From Candidatus Woesearchaeota archaeon (GTDB lineage Archaea > Nanobdellota > Nanobdellia > SCGC-AAA011-G17 > PNOQ01), in NCBI GenBank assembly GCA_964448715.1, contig CAYUWX010000003.1:1-33542 (forward strand): DNA of 33,542 nt. The letters run 5' to 3'. The position numbers and the translations under genes were made by a program. Under the pieces are notes generated by a model. That model was not told where the DNA came from and did not search any database. It saw only the letters and a program-made list of their open reading frames with translations. Shown one piece after another: positions 10,404 to 19,319 of this stretch. Positions within the stretch are counted from its first letter, which is position 1, and each line of letters begins with the position of its first letter.

Positions 10404-11720
10404 TTATTTTTTTCTTTTTTTATAATAAATTAAAAAAATTATTGCTACAAATAAAACAATTATACCCATACTTATTTCCCTATTCAAACTAACTATTTCT
10501 TGTAATTCTAGATTTTTAGATTCAGAAGAAACATCATCTTTTTGAGTTCCAAATAATATATCATAAATTCCAGTTTCACTAATTGTTTCTTCAATAAATT
10601 CTTCTCCATTAGATGCATTATAAATTATACAACATAAATAATTTGAATCAGTATAGTAGTCACACTCTTGATCAAGATAAGGTGTTTCTGCATGATAATA
10701 ATTATTTTCACAAGAACTTAAACAAGAACCCCCATAATACTCGCAATCATTAATTTCATCATTAGAATAAGGATAACAACATTTAAATTCAGAATTTTCA
10801 GCCTTACAATCATCATTTAATTGAGTATAGTCTGATTCATTAATTTCATAATGATTTTCATCACAAGAATCACTACAAATTCCACCATAATATTCGCAAT
10901 AGTTTTCAATTATTGGACTTTCTTGAATTAAACAATCATCTCCAATACATTCTTCTGTTTCATTAATAAATTCTACAATTTCTTCACAAAAACCAGTTTC
11001 TGTACAATTATAATTCTCAGGACAAGGGCAAACTCCCGATTTTCCAGCACAAGAACCTCTTAAAATTGCAGTCTCATTTTCTATTTGACAATATCCTCCA
11101 AATAATTCATTAGAACACTCTCCGGGTTGAGTTCCATCTCCGCAAATATATTGTTCATCAAAAACACATTCGCCATTATTACAAATATTATAATTTTCAC
11201 AATTTGCCCGGATACCTTCACAATCAGCAGAATTATTTTCACAAGTTTCAGAATATTCCTCATGTCCATCTAAACCAGAATAAGCACAAATTCCATCTTC
11301 ATCTTCTGATTTTTCACAATTACCATTTAAACAAACCTTACTACTTCCACAATCATCATTTGTTTTACAATCTTCAGTTGAACCACCACCTCCATTACTG
11401 GGAGTAGTACACTGCCCACCCCCTTGACACTCTTTTCCAGAAGGACAACCACATTCTTGACAATCAATTTGAAGATAACAAACATCTTCTCCAACAACAG
11501 GATCATATTCGGAATAACAATAATAAGGTTGACCATGACTTTCACTAACCGAACAATCTCCAGGTTCAGTACCATCGCCACAAGGGCAAGGACCACTAAG
11601 ACCAAGACCAGCCATGCCAGTAATATTAGAATTGTCCCCAACATAATAATTAATTAGAAAGATTATTCCTAAAATAATTAATACAACAATTAAAATTTTT
11701 GTTATATCCTCTTTTCTCAT
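10404..11720 (-). CDS. cysteine-rich surface protein with N- and C-terminal hydrophobic anchors
   Basis: 438 aa and many Cys. N-terminal TM ILIVVLIILGIIFLINYY. C-terminal TM MGIIVLFVAIIFLIYY followed by KKRKK. Contains a CPCGDGTEPGDC...CQECGCPSGKEC module and two tandem CEYYGG.C modules. Confidence 0.75.
   Translation of the reverse strand: MRKEDITKILIVVLIILGIIFLINYYVGDNSNITGMAGLGLSGPCPCGDGTEPGDCSVSESHGQPYYCYSEYDPVVGEDVCYLQIDCQECGCPSGKECQGGGQCTTPSNGGGGSTEDCKTNDDCGSSKVCLNGNCEKSEDEDGICAYSGLDGHEEYSETCENNSADCEGIRANCENYNICNNGECVFDEQYICGDGTQPGECSNELFGGYCQIENETAILRGSCAGKSGVCPCPENYNCTETGFCEEIVEFINETEECIGDDCLIQESPIIENYCEYYGGICSDSCDENHYEINESDYTQLNDDCKAENSEFKCCYPYSNDEINDCEYYGGSCLSSCENNYYHAETPYLDQECDYYTDSNYLCCIIYNASNGEEFIEETISETGIYDILFGTQKDDVSSESKNLELQEIVSLNREISMGIIVLFVAIIFLIYYKKRKK
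10620..10898 (-). repeat. tandem duplication of a ~42-aa Cys-rich module inside the CDS
   Basis: CEYYGGICSDSCDENHYEINESDYTQLNDDCKAENSEFKCCYPY (10770-10898) versus CEYYGGSCLSSCENNYYHAETPYLDQECDYYTDSNYLCCIIY (10620-10745). The Cys spacing is conserved. Confidence 0.8.
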
Positions 11721-11771: not shown

Positions 11772-12272
11772 ATGGATCTCAAAAAGATTTATATTGTGGG
11801 TACGATGGGTTCTGGAAAAACCTATTTAGCAAAAAAATTATCCAAAGAATTAAATATCCCCCACTACGACTTAGATGATTTATACTGGAAAAGAAAATAC
11901 ACCTCAAAAAATTCAGAAGAAAATAAAAAAAGCAATTTAGAAATAATACTTAAAAATAAAGAGTGAATAATTGAAGGAGTTTATACAGATTGGGTAGATC
12001 AAGCAGTAAAACAAACAGATATGTTAATTTGGCTAGACATAAACAAAAATATATCATCTTGGAGAATTCTTAAAAGATATTTTAAAGGAAATAATGATAA
12101 TAAAAACTTTAAAGATGTTCTAAGATTAATAAAAATAGCAAGAAACCATAAGAAAGATGATCCTGAATCGGGATATTACCAACATAAAAGAATGATAGAA
12201 AAACATGATGTTAATTTAGTATATTTGACAAATAAAAAAGAAATAAATAAATTTTTAGGAGATTTATTTTAA
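11772..12272 (+). pseudogene. P-loop NTPase (topology-modulation/adenylate-kinase-like family) interrupted by one in-frame TGA
   Basis: Track ORFs 11772-11966 and 12021-12272 are in the same frame. The Walker A motif is GTMGSGKT. The reading frame continues through the TGA at 11964-11966 as KNKE*IIEGVY. As I recall, family members have WIIDGNY here, so TGA replaces a conserved Trp (TGG). Confidence 0.65.
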
Positions 12273-15133: not shown

Positions 15134-16555
15134 ATGAAAACTGTAGAAAATTTATTGAAAAAATCAATAAGTAAAATACCTAAACAGAAAGTAGCATTAT
15201 TATTTTCTGGAGGAATAGATTCACTAGCTTTAGCTTTATATTTAAAAAAATTAAATTATGATTTCACATGCTACACTGTTGGAACAAAATATTCAAAAGA
15301 TATTGAATCATCAAGAAAAGTTGCTGAAGAATTAGATCTAAAACACGAAATAAAAATAGTAGATGAAAAACAAATAGAAAAAAATTTAAAAAAAATTGTT
15401 TCAATCCTTAGAAGTACATCCCCTATAGATGTAACAGTAGGATTAACGACATATTTAGCATCCAAATTCGCAAAAGAAGATATAGTTATTTCAGGATTAG
15501 GTTCAGATGAAATTTTCGGAGGTTACTTCAGACACAAAACTTCAGAAGATCTAAATAAAGATTTAAAAGAAGGATTGGACCGAGTTTACAATGGAGATTT
15601 AATTCGCGATACTACACTTGCTAATTCATTAGGAAAAGAAATATTCGCACCATTCTTAAACAAAGAATTAGTTGAATATTCATTAACAATACCAAAAGAA
15701 AAGAAGATAAAAGGAGATATGAACAAATTAATACTTAGAGAATTACTAATTTCAAACGGAGTTTCACAAGAATCTGCATTACGTTTAAAAAAGGCAGCCC
15801 AATACGGAACAGAATTTGATAAAGTACTTAGAAAATTATCAAAAAAATCAAAAGAAAAATACTTAAGAGGTTTTTTTAAAGTTGCCTCACTTTATTCCTC
15901 AGGAAAAGATTCCACTTACTCATTACAATTAATTAAAGAACAAGGTTATGATGTAAATTGCTTAGTTACAATAAAATCCTCGAATCAAGATTCATATATG
16001 TATCACACTCCGAATATAGATTTGGTTTCTTTGCAAGCAGAAGCATTAGAATTGCCTTTACTAATTGAAAAAACATCAGGATTAAAAGAAGATGAATTAA
16101 AAGATTTGGAAATAGCATTAAAAAAAGCAAAAGCAAAATTTGGAATTTTAGGTGTTGTAACTGGAGCTTTATTTTCTGAATATCAAGCATCTCGCATTGC
16201 CAAAATATGTGATTCATTAAATTTGGAATGTTTTAATCCGCTTTGGCATAAGGATCAAGCTTCTTATATGAAAGAAATAGTTTCAAAAAATTATGATATA
16301 TTATTTTCCTCGATAGCCGCAGATGGACTTTCTAAAGATTGGTTAGGTAGAAGAATAACAAAAGAAGATGTTTCAAATTTAATTAAATTACATTCAAAAA
16401 ATGGTTTGAATGTTGCTGGAGAAGGAGGAGAGTTTGAGTCTTTAGTATTAGATTGCCCACTATTTAAGAAAAAAATTAAAATTTTAGAATCAGAAGTTAA
16501 AATGGAAAATAAATGCACTGGAAGATTTATAATTAAAAAAGCTAAATTAGAATGA
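15134..16555 (+). CDS. fusion protein: asparagine-synthetase-like (AsnB C-terminal) PP-loop domain + diphthine--ammonia ligase (Dph6/MJ0570-type) PP-loop domain
   Basis: N-terminal half has ALLFSGGIDS, GLGSDEIFGGY and FAPFLNKELVEY (AsnB synthetase-domain signatures). C-terminal half has SLYSSGKDS, DSYMYHT, GALFSEYQ and GEGGEFESLVLDCPLF (Dph6 N-terminal-domain signatures). TGA stop overlaps the next ATG (ATGA). Confidence 0.8.
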   Translation: MKTVENLLKKSISKIPKQKVALLFSGGIDSLALALYLKKLNYDFTCYTVGTKYSKDIESSRKVAEELDLKHEIKIVDEKQIEKNLKKIVSILRSTSPIDVTVGLTTYLASKFAKEDIVISGLGSDEIFGGYFRHKTSEDLNKDLKEGLDRVYNGDLIRDTTLANSLGKEIFAPFLNKELVEYSLTIPKEKKIKGDMNKLILRELLISNGVSQESALRLKKAAQYGTEFDKVLRKLSKKSKEKYLRGFFKVASLYSSGKDSTYSLQLIKEQGYDVNCLVTIKSSNQDSYMYHTPNIDLVSLQAEALELPLLIEKTSGLKEDELKDLEIALKKAKAKFGILGVVTGALFSEYQASRIAKICDSLNLECFNPLWHKDQASYMKEIVSKNYDILFSSIAADGLSKDWLGRRITKEDVSNLIKLHSKNGLNVAGEGGEFESLVLDCPLFKKKIKILESEVKMENKCTGRFIIKKAKLE

Positions 16556-17091
16556 TAATAACAATAACAGGCCCAAGATCAGTAGGAAAAACAACCATAT
16601 CAAAACTTTTAGCAAAAAAATTAAAATTAAAACATATCTCTTCAGATGAAATTGGAGAAAAAGCAATGAAAAATTTTGGAGGATTAGATAAAGCAATTAA
16701 ATCTGGGAAAATAGATGAATTCATAAAAAACGGTGCTTATTCGTTAATAAGGGCAGAATATGAAAAAAATAATTTTATTTTTGATCTCTCTGGAGGATCA
16801 GTAACTTCAACAAAATTTGAAAAGGAGAGTGAACAAGTAAAAAAAATTGCAAAAGAAAAATCAAAAATAATAGGATTATTACCTTCTAAAAATATTGAAG
16901 AATCAATAAATTTTCTATTTGAAAGAGAAAAAGAAAGAATCCATTTTAAAGATATGGATAAAGAAGAATTATTTAAAAAAGTAAAAATTAATTATAAAAA
17001 ATTCCCAAAAATATTTGGGACTCTTTGCGATAAAATAATATATGTAAAAAATAAATCCAAAAAAGAGATTATAGACGAAATTTTAAGTTAA
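16552..17091 (+). CDS. P-loop kinase-like protein (shikimate/adenylate-kinase-like fold)
   Basis: MIITITGPRSVGKTTISKLLAKKL Walker A at the N-terminus. 179 aa. Substrate not inferable. Confidence 0.55.
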   Translation: MIITITGPRSVGKTTISKLLAKKLKLKHISSDEIGEKAMKNFGGLDKAIKSGKIDEFIKNGAYSLIRAEYEKNNFIFDLSGGSVTSTKFEKESEQVKKIAKEKSKIIGLLPSKNIEESINFLFEREKERIHFKDMDKEELFKKVKINYKKFPKIFGTLCDKIIYVKNKSKKEIIDEILS

Positions 17092-17140
17092 ATTATATGC
17101 TTAATTTCAATATTACTAAAAAGTAGTAAAAATAGTAACA

Positions 17141-17148
17141 TTTATAAA
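17141..17148 (+). promoter_or_regulatory. archaeal-style TATA-like box upstream of the sigma-factor gene
   Basis: tttataaa centred about 28 nt upstream of the ATG at 17173. Same box type and spacing as the neighbouring archaeal genes. Confidence 0.5.
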
Positions 17149-17172: not shown

Positions 17173-18129
17173 ATGAATGAAGATAATATAATGGCTATTT
17201 ATTCCAAGGAAATTAAGGAGCATGGAAAAATATTAAATAGTGAAGAACAAAAAAAACTTGCAAAATCTATATATGGTAATAAAATAATTTCAAAAATTTA
17301 TTCAAAATCTCTAATGGATAAAAATATATCTAAAGAAACTAAATATAGGTTAAAATCTCAATACGAGGAAATAGAATCACAAATAAATAAAGAAAAAGAA
17401 GTATTAACAACAACAAATTTACCATTAGTAATTTTTAAAGCAAAAAAATATGTAAAAAAAGGAGTAGAATTTTCAGATTTAATTCAAGAAGGAAGTATAG
17501 CTCTTTTTAATCAAGGAATAAATAACTATGATCCTTACCATTCTTCAAATTCAAAATTTACTTCTTATGCAGGATTATGGATAGATCAGGCAATGGGAAG
17601 GGTAGTATATAATCACTCTAAAACCATAAGATTACCTGTACATGTAAATGAATTAGAAACAAAAATTCAAAGATTTACTGATAGTTTTATTTTAGAAAAT
17701 TTAAGAGAACCTAGTTCCAAAGAAATTTCTAAAGGAATTGAAATAAAATTAAAAAAAATTAATGAGACCCTAAGAGATCAACAATCTAGAAAAGGGCCAT
17801 TAAGTTTAGACTATTCTAATCCGGATAATGGAAGTTCATTATTGGACACCATTTCATATAATCCTGAAAAAGAATTAGAAGGGCCAATCGAATTTAATCA
17901 TAAAAATATAATCGAGGAGTTATTTTTAACTGCTAGACTTACCGAGAGAGAAGAAATAGTAATGAAAGGAAGATTTGGTTTAGATACACAAAATTCCATA
18001 ACATTAAGAGAACTAGGAGAAGAATTAGGAGTTACTAGAGAAAGAATTCGTCAAATTGAAATAATGTCTATTAATAAATTAAGAAATGCTGCAAAAAATT
18101 TAAATTTAAATTTTGAAGATTTAATTTAA
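17173..18129 (+). CDS. bacterial-type RNA polymerase sigma-70 family factor (regions 2, 3 and 4 present)
   Basis: FSDLIQEGSIALFNQGINNYDPYHSSNSKFTSYAGLWIDQAMGR (regions 2.1-2.4). TIRLPVHVNELETKI (region 3.0). REEIVMKGRFGLDTQNSITLRELGEELGVTRERIRQIEIMSINKLR (region 4 HTH). Collinear with E. coli RpoD motifs DLIQEGNIGLMKAV, TIRIPVH and VTRERIRQIE. Confidence 0.9.
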   Translation: MNEDNIMAIYSKEIKEHGKILNSEEQKKLAKSIYGNKIISKIYSKSLMDKNISKETKYRLKSQYEEIESQINKEKEVLTTTNLPLVIFKAKKYVKKGVEFSDLIQEGSIALFNQGINNYDPYHSSNSKFTSYAGLWIDQAMGRVVYNHSKTIRLPVHVNELETKIQRFTDSFILENLREPSSKEISKGIEIKLKKINETLRDQQSRKGPLSLDYSNPDNGSSLLDTISYNPEKELEGPIEFNHKNIIEELFLTARLTEREEIVMKGRFGLDTQNSITLRELGEELGVTRERIRQIEIMSINKLRNAAKNLNLNFEDLI

Positions 18130-19319
18130 ATTAGTTTAATATTTTTAACTTTTTCTTTTATCCATTTTTCTTTAATTAAACTTCTAGAAAATTCCATTGG
18201 TGTCCTATATTTTCTTTCTAAAATAACATAAGTTTTTCCCTTAGAAATTTTGACATTCTTCCATTTTTTCATAAAAGCCAAACTATTTTTTTCATCCTTA
18301 ACTTTTGGACCTTGATGAATCTTTTTTTTAGGAAGCTTATCGGCTTTAAACCAAAAATGAACTTTATCTTCAAATTTCCAACCATAATTTTTTATTTTAA
18401 AATCTTTGTCTTCAAATTCTTTCTTCATTCTCTCCAACAAACTTAATAATTTAGATCCAATGATATCCCTTTTACCTTCAAAAGGAGTAATTTCAAAAAT
18501 AACATGATCTTTCTTTAATTTATGAATTAATACTTCTTTTTTAATAAAAAAAGTTTTATTGCCATCATATGCTTTACAAAGTGAAATAAATTTATTATAA
18601 TTTTTTTTACTAATGGCTGCTGCGGCATTTCTATCTTCTTGAACTGGGTCAATAATAATTAGTGGAGAAACTTTTTTGGATTTATTTAATTCTCTTAATG
18701 CCTTTTCTTTATTTCTTCCAAAATAAATAACTTCTTCGTCCTTCCAAGTTTTAACATTTTTTATTAATTTATCAAATGAACCATATTTAATAATTAACAA
18801 TTCTAAAACATATCCGGAAAATCCACGAATATAAGATTCAGCACCATACAAATCATTTGCCCTACAAAAATATTTTAAGATTTTAATTTCATTTTGTTTT
18901 TTTCTATTTGTTTTTTTCTTAACAAATTTTACATGTAATGGGGAAAAATCCATAATATTTTGAGAATTAGAAGATTTTTTTATATCTAAAACGGGAACTA
19001 TTTCAAATTTAAGATTATTTTCCAAAATATGGAAATAATCTCTAGATCCATGAACTATTTTAACCTTACGTCTAAATTCAGATTTTAAAAATTTCTTTAA
19101 TTCTTTAGAAATATTTTTATCATGATATTTTTTGTAATTAAATTTTGCAAATATGTCTATATCTAAATTATCTTTCAAAAAAGTATTTTTTGCATAACTT
19201 CCACCAACATAAAATTTTATATCTTTATTTTTAAGTTTTTTTAAAAATTCTTTGACTTTTTTATCTAGTTGTTTCTTTTCTACTTTATTTTGATTTATTT
19301 GTTCTAAAATGGATTTCAT
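18126..19319 (-). CDS. cca: CCA-adding tRNA nucleotidyltransferase, archaeal class I
   Basis: FYVGGSYAKNTFLKDNLDIDIF (GS...DxD nucleotidyltransferase motif of archaeal CCA enzymes), RGFSGY motif, 397 aa. All three tRNAs in the window lack encoded CCA. Confidence 0.85.
   Translation of the reverse strand: MKSILEQINQNKVEKKQLDKKVKEFLKKLKNKDIKFYVGGSYAKNTFLKDNLDIDIFAKFNYKKYHDKNISKELKKFLKSEFRRKVKIVHGSRDYFHILENNLKFEIVPVLDIKKSSNSQNIMDFSPLHVKFVKKKTNRKKQNEIKILKYFCRANDLYGAESYIRGFSGYVLELLIIKYGSFDKLIKNVKTWKDEEVIYFGRNKEKALRELNKSKKVSPLIIIDPVQEDRNAAAAISKKNYNKFISLCKAYDGNKTFFIKKEVLIHKLKKDHVIFEITPFEGKRDIIGSKLLSLLERMKKEFEDKDFKIKNYGWKFEDKVHFWFKADKLPKKKIHQGPKVKDEKNSLAFMKKWKNVKISKGKTYVILERKYRTPMEFSRSLIKEKWIKEKVKNIKLI

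What the first reader, a model, noticed from the sequence alone, without database searches (positions are those of the whole stretch)
17173..18129. Complete bacterial-type sigma-70 factor embedded in an archaeal chromosome with an archaeal-style promoter
Seen in the sequence: a 318-aa ORF with collinear sigma-70 regions 2, 3.0 and 4. The motifs are DLIQEGSIAL, FTSYAGLWIDQAMGR, TIRLPVHV and GVTRERIRQIEIMSINKLR. Its neighbours are unambiguously archaeal. Its 3' end overlaps the archaeal class I CCA-adding enzyme gene by 4 nt, and upstream lies the Dph6-like gene. It shares the local AT-rich composition. It also has the same tttataaa box about 28 nt upstream of the ATG as neighbouring genes, so it looks like a long-resident, expressed gene rather than an assembly chimera. 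Established knowledge: archaeal RNAP initiates with TBP/TFB/TFE and has no known use for sigma factors. From my memory of E. coli RpoD, the region 4.2 recognition helix (TRERIRQIE) and the region 2.2 core-binding segment are well conserved. The region 2.3/2.4 WWIRQAITR melting/-10 segment reads LWIDQAMGR, which suggests altered or lost -10 function. Inference: it could act as a stand-alone HTH regulator, contact the archaeal RNAP clamp, or target a bacterial partner's polymerase. I cannot judge from memory how often this has been catalogued in DPANN genomes.
Basis: partly seen in the sequence, partly recalled or inferred. Interest (0 to 1): 0.8.

Follow-up and report, generated by a model that had tools for sequence, protein, structure and literature searches.

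The report
Bacterial-type sigma factor in Woesearchaeota
A DPANN (Woesearchaeota) archaeal chromosome really does carry an intact bacterial-type sigma-70 gene with its own archaeal promoter, but such genes have been reported in these archaea since 2013 and their function is still unknown, so this is a new, divergent member of a known oddity.

Summary
ORF 17173-18129 (+) encodes a 318-aa sigma-70-family protein with regions 1.2-like, 2, 3 and 4, but no region 1.1. It lies among archaeal genes: Dph6, class I CCA enzyme, FttA/aCPSF1 and proteasome subunits. Seven near-identical independent assemblies, typical codon usage and a position-locked TATA box rule out a chimera.

It is not a new phenomenon. 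Archaeal sigma factors were described by Rinke et al. (2013), and Castelle et al. (2021) catalogued them as prevalent in Woesearchaeota.

New here:
- The protein belongs to a Woesearchaeota-specific sigma clade, marked by shared indels and 88% bootstrap support.
- That clade's usual locus is FtsJ-CorA-Zip-sigma-EndoIII, next to oxidative-stress genes.
- In this organism the gene lies elsewhere, in a variable Dph6-[slot]-CCA position that holds other genes in the nearest relatives.
- It keeps its upstream region: a 30-nt block including the TATA box is identical to that of a relative only 55% identical in protein.
- The -35 recognition helix and region 3.0 are bacterial-like, while region 2.3-2.4 is the most diverged (W433L, R436D, T440G).

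The function is untested. The most likely role is an accessory promoter-DNA-binding regulator. I score interest as moderate and file it as a new member of a known kind.

The parts
17173..18129 (+). Sigma-70-family gene, 318 aa (regions 1.2-like, 2, 3, 4; no region 1.1)
   Evidence: ORF. Pfam r2/r3/r4. NCBIfam TIGR02937 passed, with RpoD/RpoS-type best hits. PDB sequence hits to SigA/RpoD at E~1e-36. AF2 model and Foldseek.
17119..17148 (+). Conserved promoter block AAAAGTAGTAAAAATAGTAACATTTATAAA. It contains a TAGTAA-N3-TAGTAA direct repeat abutting the TATA box.
   Evidence: 30/30 nt identical to the upstream region of the sigma gene in L029/L030, where the protein is only 55% and the CDS DNA 67% identical. 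The motif occurs once in the window (0.05 expected). Among the fetched loci it is found only in the window-population contigs and L029/L030.
17141..17148 (+). TATA box TTTATAAA, first base 32 nt upstream of the ATG (leaderless or very short leader)
   Evidence: TTTAWAWA starts at -27 to -32 in 11 of 34 window genes, P~1e-6 against the intergenic motif density.
17182..17283 (+). Region 1.2-like N-terminal helices (aa 4-37)
   Evidence: Aligns with E. coli sigma70 residues 94-127. Only 2 of 7 bacterial near-invariant residues are kept. AF2 helices H3-17 and H23-47; block-mean pLDDT 67-71 over aa 1-20 and >=92 from aa 21. No Pfam PF00140 hit.
17410..17595 (+). Region 2 (Pfam Sigma70_r2, aa 80-141). 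Includes region 2.2 DLIQEGSIAL (17476-17505) and the start of region 2.3.
   Evidence: D403, Q406 and E407 are kept; R385P, L402S, N409S and M413F are changed (E. coli numbering). 16 of 24 near-invariant residues are kept.
17557..17601 (+). Region 2.3/2.4, FTSYAGLWIDQAMGR: the most diverged module
   Evidence: F427, Y430, W434, Q437 and R441 are kept; W433L, R436D, T432G and T440G are changed. 7 of 20 near-invariant residues are kept, against 11-12 in three relatives. T432G and R436D are shared with the 55% relative, which keeps W433.
17623..17646 (+). Region 3.0, TIRLPVHV (extended -10 contact region in bacteria)
   Evidence: R451 and H455 lie within the motif; E458 (aa 160, nt 17650-17652) lies just downstream. 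All three are kept. 7 of 7 near-invariant residues are kept.
17662..17850 (+). Region 3 (Pfam Sigma70_r3, aa 164-226)
   Evidence: 23.3 bits, just below the 25.3-bit cut-off. AF2 helices H156-176, H182-189 and H193-206.
17794..17880 (+). Region 3.2-like linker (aa 208-236), predicted disordered
   Evidence: pLDDT <50 for residues 208-231 and 233-236. 5 of 8 near-invariant residues are kept.
17932..18087 (+). Region 4 (Pfam Sigma70_r4, aa 254-305), with the recognition helix TRERIRQIE at 18034-18060
   Evidence: 41.3 bits. Identical to E. coli residues 583-591, including R584, E585, R588 and Q589. Region 4.1 keeps 6 of 7 and region 4.2 keeps 16 of 22 near-invariant residues.
18126..18129 (.). 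4-nt convergent overlap of the sigma and CCA-enzyme stop codons
16552..17091 (+). P-loop kinase-like ORF (179 aa) sharing the variable Dph6-CCA slot with the sigma gene; overlaps Dph6 by 4 nt
   Evidence: Weak Pfam hits to Cytidylate_kin2 and SKI. Absent from the syntenic slot of relatives L009 and L011.
15134..16555 (+). Left flank of the slot: Asn-synthase-like + Dph6 (diphthine-ammonia ligase) fusion gene, an archaeal marker
   Evidence: TIGR03679 Dph6_archaeal 270.8 bits (cut-off 197.3). Orthologues are 57-59% identical in L009 and L011.
18126..19319 (-). Right flank of the slot: archaeal class I CCA-adding enzyme
   Evidence: TIGR03671 cca_archaeal 248.5 bits (cut-off 281.3), plus Pfam tRNA_NucTransf2 and CAA_C. 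Orthologues are 64-71% identical in L009 and L011.

Best explanation
**What it is (shown).** The gene is a domesticated, bacterial-derived sigma-70 homologue. It is RpoD/RpoS-like, with the architecture 1.2-2-3-4 and no autoinhibitory region 1.1. It belongs to a clade of sigma genes maintained in Woesearchaeota (DPANN archaea).

**Where it sits (shown).** In this organism the gene has ended up together with its own highly conserved archaeal promoter in a variable slot between Dph6 and the CCA-adding enzyme. The clade's usual locus is FtsJ-CorA-Zip-sigma-EndoIII.

**How it most likely works (inferred).**
- The archaeal RNA polymerase transcribes it from a TATA/BRE-type promoter as a leaderless or short-leader mRNA.
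- The protein acts as an accessory, non-essential transcription regulator. It binds promoter-like duplex DNA through its fully conserved region 4.2 helix-turn-helix (a -35-type reading head) and region 3.0.
- It may be tethered to the polymerase clamp through region 2.2.
- Its bacterial -10 melting module is partly degenerate.
- It is not a general initiation factor. Archaeal TBP/TFB/TFE fill that role.
For: **Identity.**

**Archaeal host and no chimera.**

**Clade membership.**
- The best non-self hits among 1.84 billion cluster representatives are short full-length proteins: P0241 (181 bits), P0246/P0509 and P0375.
- P0509 is annotated by NCBI as from 'Candidatus Woesearchaeota archaeon'.
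- They share a 2-3-aa insertion between regions 2.2 and 2.3 and the C-terminal tail LNLxxEDxI.
- In an NJ tree the clade WIN+P0509+P0241 has 88/100 bootstrap support.
- A 55%-identical relative was found in L029/L030.

**Conserved ancestral locus.** It appears in three sub-lineages.

**Relocation with its promoter.** 30/30 nt are identical upstream, against 67% identity in the CDS DNA.

**Promoter type.**

**Selection for an intact product.**
- The 318-codon ORF is open in a genome of about 25% GC.
- Regions 3.0 (7/7), 3.1 (5/5), 4.1 (6/7) and 4.2 (16/22) keep most bacterial near-invariant residues. TRERIRQIE is identical in three of the five clade members (WIN, P0509, P0375); P0241 has TRERVRQIE. 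The L029/L030 protein also has TRERIRQIE.

**Accessory rather than essential.**
- It is absent from the syntenic slot of the nearest relatives.
- A nonsense allele that removes region 4 occurs on three independent contigs of a related lineage.

**No region 1.1.** There is no PF03979 hit and the N-terminus aligns from E. coli residue ~94. It is established for E. coli sigma70 that region 1.1 inhibits DNA binding by the free protein.
Against: - No experiment or expression data bear on this gene.
- Sigma-70-type promoter-like sites are not enriched in the window: 102 found against 98 +/- 10 in shuffles.
- TTGACA is not enriched in 12 kb of Woesearchaeota intergenic DNA: 2 hits, rank 99 of 180 composition-matched hexamers. 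No target sites were therefore identified.
- The melting aromatics F427, Y430 and W434, plus Q437, are conserved across the clade. This is hard to explain for a purely duplex-binding regulator and points toward a polymerase-associated role.
- The core-binding motif varies within the clade: E407 becomes V in P0509 and L in P0375.
- The rest of the genome could not be inspected for bacterial rpoB/rpoC.
Confidence: 0.5

Rival explanations
1. It is a genuine sigma-like specificity factor for the archaeal RNA polymerase. Region 2.2 docks on the Rpo1 clamp coiled-coil and region 4 on the Rpo2 flap or wall. The protein then directs, and helps open, a dedicated promoter class, for example a stress regulon.
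For: - The clade conserves residues that in bacteria matter only in the holoenzyme context: the melting and -10 residues F427, Y430, W434 and Q437; region 2.2 D403/Q406/E407 in WIN, P0241 and L030; and region 4.1.
- The ancestral locus lies beside EndoIII and oxidative-stress genes (SOD, peroxiredoxin, rubrerythrin, desulfoferrodoxin, FUR) in several lineages.
- Relatives carry a second, FliA/WhiG-like sigma in tandem, which suggests a small sigma 'system'.
Against: - No sigma-70-type promoter enrichment was found.
- W433L, R436D and T440G in this copy weaken the melting module.
- E407 is not conserved across the clade.
- No precedent exists for sigma binding to an archaeal RNAP.
- The interaction could not be modelled with the tools available.
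Confidence: 0.15
2. It is functionally decaying or neutral cargo: a remnant of an old bacterial transfer that is carried along and is being lost piecemeal in Woesearchaeota.
For: - The closest relatives have no sigma in the syntenic slot, which turns over its gene content.
- Region 2.3-2.4 keeps only 7 of 20 near-invariant residues.
- A nonsense allele occurs in a related lineage.
- Clade members are only 32-55% identical to this protein, which indicates fast evolution.
Against: - The 318-codon ORF is intact in AT-rich DNA, where stop codons arise easily.
- The protein is near-identical (a single K187E difference) across 7 assemblies.
- The region 4.2 and 3.0 motifs are perfectly conserved.
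- A 30-nt promoter block is conserved at 100% while the CDS has diverged to 67%. This argues for selection on regulated expression.
Confidence: 0.18
3. It is cargo of a mobile element, virus or defence island, such as a phage-type takeover sigma or an MzaA-like defence sigma, inserted into a chromosomal hotspot.
For: - It matches phrog_351 (phage RNA polymerase sigma factor, E=6e-45) and MzaA (PADLOC E=2e-25; NCBIfam 160 bits).
- The slot is variable.
- rpoS-like genes are reported on putative DPANN viruses (PMC12647753).
Against: - These hits cover only the generic sigma domains. The MzaA score is 160 bits against an 800-bit cut-off.
- There are no Mza partners, integrase, capsid or terminase genes, or flanking repeats.
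- IMG/VR holds only 22-29%-identical relatives.
- Relatives sit in a stable chromosomal locus among housekeeping genes.
Confidence: 0.07
4. It is an artefact: the contig is bacterial (for example CPR), or it is a bacterial/archaeal assembly chimera.
For: Every homologue outside the Woesearchaeota clade is bacterial RpoD/SigA-like, at 33-42% identity.
Against: - Seven independent assemblies from JGI and ENA samples share the same junctions at >=99.84% identity.
- Archaeal marker genes lie on both sides.
- GC3 and codon usage are typical of the window.
- The promoter is of the archaeal type.
- The closest homologues are themselves on Woesearchaeota contigs.
Confidence: 0.02

Closest known systems
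Sigma-70 genes of DPANN archaea (protein family fam00359 in Castelle et al. 2021, PMC8204110; archaeal sigma factors first described by Rinke et al. 2013)
   Same: - A complete sigma-70-type protein encoded on a Woesearchaeota chromosome among archaeal genes.
- No anti-sigma factor nearby.
- Function unknown.
- The nearest homologues are Woesearchaeota proteins such as MBT7238269.1.
   Different: - This copy is divergent: at most 55% identical to any relative found.
- It sits in a different locus from its clade relatives.
- It carries W433L.
- I could not check whether this exact lineage was in the published data sets.
Bacterial group 1/2 sigma factors (RpoD/SigA, RpoS)
   Same: - Collinear regions 1.2, 2, 3.0, 3.1, 3.2, 4.1 and 4.2.
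- The region 4.2 recognition helix is identical to E. coli 583-591, and H455/E458 are conserved.
- The predicted structure matches SigA in initiation complexes.
- The size and the lack of region 1.1 resemble group 2.
   Different: - Scores are far below every equivalog cut-off, e.g. 169.5 vs 354 and 148 vs 378.7 bits.
- Region 2.3-2.4 is diverged.
- It has clade-specific insertions and a distinctive C-terminal tail.
- The host has archaeal transcription signals, and no bacterial core polymerase was seen in the sequence examined.
MzaA (MZA anti-phage system sigma) and phage-encoded sigma factors (phrog_351)
   Same: Generic sigma regions 2-4 match.
   Different: - MzaA is about 726 aa with an N-terminal extension and partner genes, and none of these are present here.
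- The score is 160 bits against an 800-bit cut-off.
- There is no phage or mobile-element context.
Archaeal TFB/TFE (functional analogues)
   Same: These are the factors that, in archaea, recognise promoter DNA next to the TATA box and assist opening, which is the job sigma does in bacteria (PMC7289017).
   Different: No sequence relationship was detected here. The protein is unambiguously of the bacterial sigma-70 family.

Membership tests
Sigma-70 superfamily | Region 2 and region 4 domains detected above curated thresholds | tested here: met
   Pfam r2 28.9 bits (cut-off 24) and r4 41.3 bits (cut-off 24.1). TIGR02937 68.2 bits (cut-off 42.9).
Sigma-70 superfamily | Region 3 domain present (groups 1-3) | tested here: inconclusive
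   Pfam r3 scores 23.3 bits, just below the 25.3-bit cut-off. However, 7 of 7 region 3.0 and 5 of 5 region 3.1 near-invariant residues are kept, and the AF2 model and Foldseek align it to SigA region 3.
Group 1 primary sigma (RpoD/SigA equivalogs) | Score above the equivalog cut-off; region 1.1 and canonical region 1.2 present | tested here: not met
   RpoD_Cterm 169.5 bits (cut-off 354) and PRK05658 163 bits (cut-off 555). No PF03979 or PF00140 hit. The N-terminus aligns only from E. coli residue ~94.
Group 2 / RpoS-like sigma | Score above the rpoS equivalog cut-off | tested here: not met
   TIGR02394 scores 148 bits against a 378.7-bit cut-off. The architecture (1.2-2-3-4, ~320 aa) resembles group 2, but membership is not established.
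Functional bacterial sigma (holoenzyme subunit) | Cognate bacterial core RNA polymerase (rpoB/rpoC) in the same genome | tested here: inconclusive
   None was found in the 33.5-kb window or in the 10 kb further upstream. The rest of the genome is not available.
Functional bacterial sigma (holoenzyme subunit) | Binding to core RNAP and promoter opening | not testable with these tools
   Only residue conservation could be scored. Region 2.2 keeps D403/Q406/E407. W433L, R436D and T440G are changed.
Functional bacterial sigma (holoenzyme subunit) | Sigma-70-type -35/-10 promoters in the host genome | tested here: not met
   102 promoter-like sites against 98.2 +/- 10 in shuffles. TTGACA is not enriched in 12 kb of intergenic DNA. 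The sample is small.
Woesearchaeota sigma clade | Shared indels, tree support and archaeal genomic context of members | tested here: met
   A 2-3-aa insertion between regions 2.2 and 2.3 and the C-terminal LNLxxEDxI tail. NJ bootstrap 88/100 with P0509 and P0241. Members lie on Woesearchaeota contigs. The upstream block is identical to that of L029/L030.
Woesearchaeota sigma clade | Residence in the conserved FtsJ-CorA-Zip-sigma-EndoIII locus | tested here: not met
   The window copy lies between a kinase/Dph6 and the CCA enzyme. No homologue of FtsJ, CorA, Zip or EndoIII is nearby.
MZA defence system (MzaA) | MzaA-length protein above the cut-off, with MzaB-E partner genes | tested here: not met
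   160.2 bits against an 800-bit cut-off, and the match covers only the C-terminal sigma domains. The neighbours gave no Mza hits.

The most novel reading that the evidence does not exclude
A bacterial-type sigma factor has been recruited to work with an archaeal RNA polymerase as a promoter-specificity subunit. Together with the FliA-like second sigma seen in relatives, it would add a sigma-style regulatory layer, possibly stress-responsive, on top of TBP/TFB/TFE in Woesearchaeota.
Probability: 0.12. Interest if true: 0.85.

Novelty: new member of a known kind. Interest (0 to 1): 0.4.

Why it matters
Sigma factors and TBP/TFB/TFE are textbook markers of the bacterial and archaeal ways of starting transcription. 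A sigma gene kept intact in archaea for a long time, under its own conserved archaeal promoter, implies a function that current models do not include.

The existence of such genes is already published, so this locus adds detail rather than a new phenomenon. It contributes three things:
- a defined Woesearchaeota sigma clade with a conserved home locus next to DNA-repair and oxidative-stress genes;
- a case where the gene lies in a different locus but keeps the same upstream region;
- a map of which bacterial functional residues are kept and which are lost.

These give concrete constructs and hypotheses for the first biochemical test of an archaeal sigma factor.

Tried and rejected
1. **Word-indexed homologue searches** with the protein and with a clade alignment. 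Both were saturated by bacterial RpoD and did not reveal the archaeal relatives. The exhaustive HMMER search, a cluster look-up and a pattern scan of metagenomes with the clade alignment did.
2. **GTDB genome scan and first metagenome scan** with the single protein. They found no close relatives.
3. **Selection test from population variants.** The seven assemblies are >=99.84% identical, with only one nonsynonymous (K187E) and one synonymous difference in the gene. This is uninformative.
4. **Mobile-element signs.** Repeats around the slot are only low-complexity AT-rich matches. There are no integrase or phage genes, and the viral contigs hold only distant sigmas. Rejected.
5. **Defence-system reading (MzaA).** Rejected on score and on missing partners.
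6. **Conserved sigma-CCA linkage.** Rejected. The convergent gene downstream of the sigma in relatives is endonuclease III.
7. **Search for sigma-70-type target promoters**. No enrichment was found.
8. **Rinke et al. 2013.** The paper is not held in the library, so its claim is cited through PMC6126073 and from memory.
9. **Castelle et al. 2021 supplements.** The held files do not contain fam00359.
Full report
**1.

The ORF at 17173-18129 (+) encodes 318 aa.

Profile and structure matches:
- Pfam detects Sigma70_r4 (41.3 bits) and Sigma70_r2 (28.9 bits) above threshold, and Sigma70_r3 just below it (23.3 vs 25.3 bits).
- NCBIfam places the protein in the sigma-70 superfamily (TIGR02937, 68.2 vs 42.9 bits). 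The best full-length similarity is to RpoD/RpoS-type models (E about 1e-50 to 1e-43), but far below every equivalog cut-off.
- Sequence comparison with PDB chains gives bacterial SigA/RpoD at E about 1e-36, from region 1.2 to the end of region 4.2.
- An AlphaFold2 model has mean pLDDT 82.8 and is disordered only at residues 208-236, the region 3.2 linker. Its Foldseek hits are exclusively bacterial primary sigma factors in initiation complexes.

The 4-nt convergent stop-codon overlap with the CCA-enzyme gene is real.

One detail needs correcting. The gene immediately upstream is a 179-aa P-loop kinase-like ORF (16552-17091), not Dph6. It overlaps Dph6 by 4 nt.

**2. The chromosome is archaeal and the junctions are real**

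The window encodes these archaeal markers:
- Dph6_archaeal (270.8 bits, above its cut-off) and an archaeal class I CCA enzyme;
- the archaeal termination factor FttA/aCPSF1 and two 20S proteasome subunits;
- an archaeal pilin N-terminus and a diphthine-synthase-like methylase.

FttA's closest named relatives are 'Candidatus Woesearchaeota archaeon' at 82% identity.

The protein (a single K187E difference from the window copy), in the same Dph6-kinase-sigma-CCA order, occurs on at least six independently assembled contigs from JGI and ENA samples. These are >=99.84% identical to the window.

The gene's GC (0.251), GC3 (0.116 against a window mean of 0.122 +/- 0.021) and codon usage (rank 20 of 34) are typical of the window.

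No bacterial RNA polymerase or anti-sigma gene is present in the window or in the 10 kb further upstream. The rest of the genome could not be examined.

**3. The promoter is archaeal and specifically conserved**

TTTAWAWA begins 27-32 nt upstream of the start codon in 11 of 34 window genes. P is about 1e-6 even against the motif's density in intergenic DNA. The sigma gene's TTTATAAA at 17141-17148 starts at -32 and fits this pattern, which implies a leaderless or very short-leader mRNA.

By contrast, sigma-70-type promoter-like sites are no more frequent than in shuffled sequence (102 vs 98 +/- 10).

**4. What the protein is related to**

An exhaustive HMMER search of 1.84 billion cluster representatives found 61,102 sigma homologues. 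The window protein is isolated among them. The best non-self hit reaches only 181 bits at 37% identity. The remaining top hits are RpoD-like at 32-42% identity, about 133-152 bits.

The best hits are short proteins that align end to end (P0241, P0246, P0375). They share clade-specific features with the window protein:
- a 2-3-residue insertion between regions 2.2 and 2.3 (DPYHSSNSKF);
- a C-terminal LNLxxEDxI tail.

P0246's cluster contains the full-length MBT7238269.1, which NCBI annotates as 'sigma-70 family RNA polymerase sigma factor [Candidatus Woesearchaeota archaeon]'.

In a neighbour-joining tree of 70 sigma proteins, the window protein groups with P0509 and P0241 at 88/100 bootstrap. 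Adding P0375 lowers this to 47/100.

A pattern scan of metagenome contigs with the clade alignment then found a closer relative, 55% identical over the full length (L029/L030).

**5. Genomic history**

The relatives sit in one conserved locus, seen in P0509 (L020-L022), P0375 (L013-L015) and the 55% relative (L029/L030):

XPD helicase - FtsJ - CorA - (PQ-loop) - Zip - (LamG-domain protein) - sigma - convergent endonuclease III

Oxidative-stress genes follow: rubrerythrin, peroxiredoxin, SOD and FUR in L020, and desulfoferrodoxin in L030.

In the P0509 and P0241 lineages a second, FliA/WhiG-like sigma gene (278 aa in L020; truncated on the 2.1-kb L012 contig) follows in tandem, with a 4-nt overlap.

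The window gene lies elsewhere. Its nearest organismal relatives (FttA 82% and 77% identical) conserve the order FttA - proteasome - x - x - Dph6 - [slot] - CCA - x - AP endonuclease - PterinBD. Their slot holds different genes:
- APH kinase, a radical-SAM gene and a small ORF in L009;
- two small ORFs in L011.

Neither relative has any sigma or kinase homologue within the fetched 10-kb flanks. No other window gene has a homologue around the L029/L030 sigma.

The upstream region nevertheless goes with the gene. Positions 17119-17148 (AAAAGTAGTAAAAATAGTAACATTTATAAA) are 30/30 identical to the sequence upstream of the L030 sigma, and a ~44-nt block is 91% identical. The coding DNA is only 67% identical and the protein 55%. 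The block occurs once in the window (0.05 expected). Among all fetched loci it is found only in this population and in L029/L030.

I infer that the gene and its promoter moved as a unit into a gene-turnover hotspot, and that the promoter is under strong constraint. The constrained part includes a TAGTAA-N3-TAGTAA repeat abutting the TATA box, which may be a regulator binding site. 'Long-resident' therefore holds for the Woesearchaeota lineage but not for this locus.

**6. Functional anatomy**

Residue numbers are those of E. coli sigma70.

| Module | Bacterial near-invariant residues kept | Notes |
|---|---|---|
| Region 4.2 | 16/22 | T583-E591 identical, including R584, E585, R588, Q589 |
| Region 4.1 | 6/7 | |
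| Region 3.0 | 7/7 | includes R451, H455, E458 |
| Region 3.1 | 5/5 | |
| Region 2.1-2.2 | 16/24 | D403, Q406, E407 kept; R385P, L402S, N409S, M413F changed |
| Region 2.3-2.4 | 7/20 | most diverged; W433L, R436D, T432G, T440G changed; F427, Y430, W434, Q437, R441 kept |

- Three relatives keep 11-12 of 20 residues in region 2.3-2.4.
- T432G and R436D are shared with the 55% relative, which still has W433.
- Region 1.1 is absent.

From established bacterial work, these patterns mean an intact -35-type reading head and extended -10 contact. The melting module is weakened but not erased. There is no N-terminal autoinhibition of DNA binding.

**7. Mechanism**

*Shown:*
- The identity of the protein.
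- The archaeal host and archaeal-type promoter.
- Clade membership and the relocation.
- The differential conservation of modules.

*Inferred:*
- The protein is expressed.
- It acts as an accessory transcription regulator that binds duplex promoter-like DNA through regions 4.2 and 3.0, perhaps docked to the polymerase clamp.

*Why accessory rather than essential:*
- The gene is absent from the syntenic slot of close relatives.
- A GAA-to-TAA nonsense allele removes region 4 on three independent contigs of the P0509 lineage.

*The main rival* is a true hybrid holoenzyme role, favoured by the conservation of the melting aromatics. The other rivals are functional decay, mobile-element or defence cargo, and artefact. 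The last is effectively excluded.

I found no target sites. TTGACA is not enriched in 12 kb of Woesearchaeota intergenic DNA.

The recurrent neighbourhood of oxidative-stress and base-excision-repair genes suggests a stress-related role. This is guilt by association only, and the association is lost in the window.

**8. Comparison with what is known, and novelty**

- Castelle et al. 2021 report sigma-70 genes (fam00359) in DPANN, 'particularly prevalent in Woesearchaeota'. They excluded mis-binning, found no anti-sigma factors and left the mechanism unclear (PMC8204110).
- Rinke et al. 2013 'first described archaeal sigma factors', as stated in PMC6126073. This matches my recollection of that paper's abstract. 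The paper itself is not held in the library.
- rpoS-like genes have also been reported on putative DPANN viruses (PMC12647753).

The phenomenon is therefore known and this gene is a new, divergent member. As far as I could see in the searchable literature, these points are new:
- the clade's conserved home locus;
- the tandem FliA-like partner;
- the relocation with a conserved promoter;
- the residue-level map.

**9. Verdict**

I classify the gene as a new member of a known kind and score interest as moderate (0.4). The phenomenon is published and no function could be established here. The underlying question of what a sigma factor does in an archaeon remains open and testable.

Noticed in passing
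L020:10951-11787 (also L021:1283-2119; partial in L012:1633-2099): Woesearchaeota relatives carry a second sigma gene in tandem with the RpoD-like one, overlapping it by 4 nt. It is 278 aa and FliA/WhiG-like (TIGR02479, 121.6 bits against a 189.6-bit cut-off). These archaea therefore have two different bacterial-type sigma classes side by side.
   Followed up: partly
L016:427-1119, L017:327-1019, L018:318-1010: A GAA-to-TAA nonsense allele at codon 231 of the P0509-type sigma, which would remove region 4, appears on three contigs from three different samples. These contigs differ from the intact allele in L020-L022 by this single base.
   Followed up: partly
L020:9945-10000, L012:630-685, L013:7813-7868: The ~55 nt upstream of the sigma gene in the FtsJ-CorA-Zip-sigma-EndoIII locus (…TTCTAAAACCGAATGATTTATAAA…CTTTGTTACCGTTCAGTGATTAAAA-ATG) is more conserved than the coding sequence. 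Over 120 nt upstream, L020 and L012 are 82% identical, and nearly identical in the last 55 nt, against 67% in the CDS. The block differs from the conserved block upstream of the window and L030 genes.
   Followed up: partly
L020:11780-14785; L030:6955-7998: The conserved sigma locus of the relatives is followed by endonuclease III and a cluster of oxidative-stress genes: rubrerythrin, peroxiredoxin, Fe-SOD and FUR in L020, and desulfoferrodoxin in L030. This suggests, by neighbourhood only, a stress-related role.
   Followed up: no
window 10404-11720 (-): This 438-aa ORF has no Pfam hit. It carries two dense patches of SNPs (10624-10791 and 11259-11303, many nonsynonymous) among assemblies that are otherwise ~99.9% identical. 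It looks like a hypervariable, possibly surface-exposed, protein.
   Followed up: no
window 11772-12272 (+): An AAA_18-type kinase gene is intact (166 aa) on contigs L001 and L004. It is interrupted by a stop codon in the window and split into two ORFs on L002 and L003. This is a polymorphic pseudogene within one population.
   Followed up: no
L011:13059-13400: A relative that lacks the sigma gene in the Dph6-CCA slot encodes a 113-aa STAS-domain protein (the fold of bacterial anti-anti-sigma factors) between the Na/Ca exchanger and RNase HII. The window has only tRNA-Met at that position.
   Followed up: no
window 15134-16555 (+): The Dph6 gene is a fusion. An N-terminal asparagine-synthase-like/DUF7411 PP-loop domain (aa 16-137) precedes the diphthamide synthase domain (aa 249-471). 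The same architecture is seen in relatives L009 and L011.
   Followed up: no
L034:6001-6744 and 10970-11638: A metagenome contig with higher GC (0.42) carries two sigma-family matches about 4 kb apart, 29-31% identical to the window protein. Its taxonomic origin was not determined.
   Followed up: no
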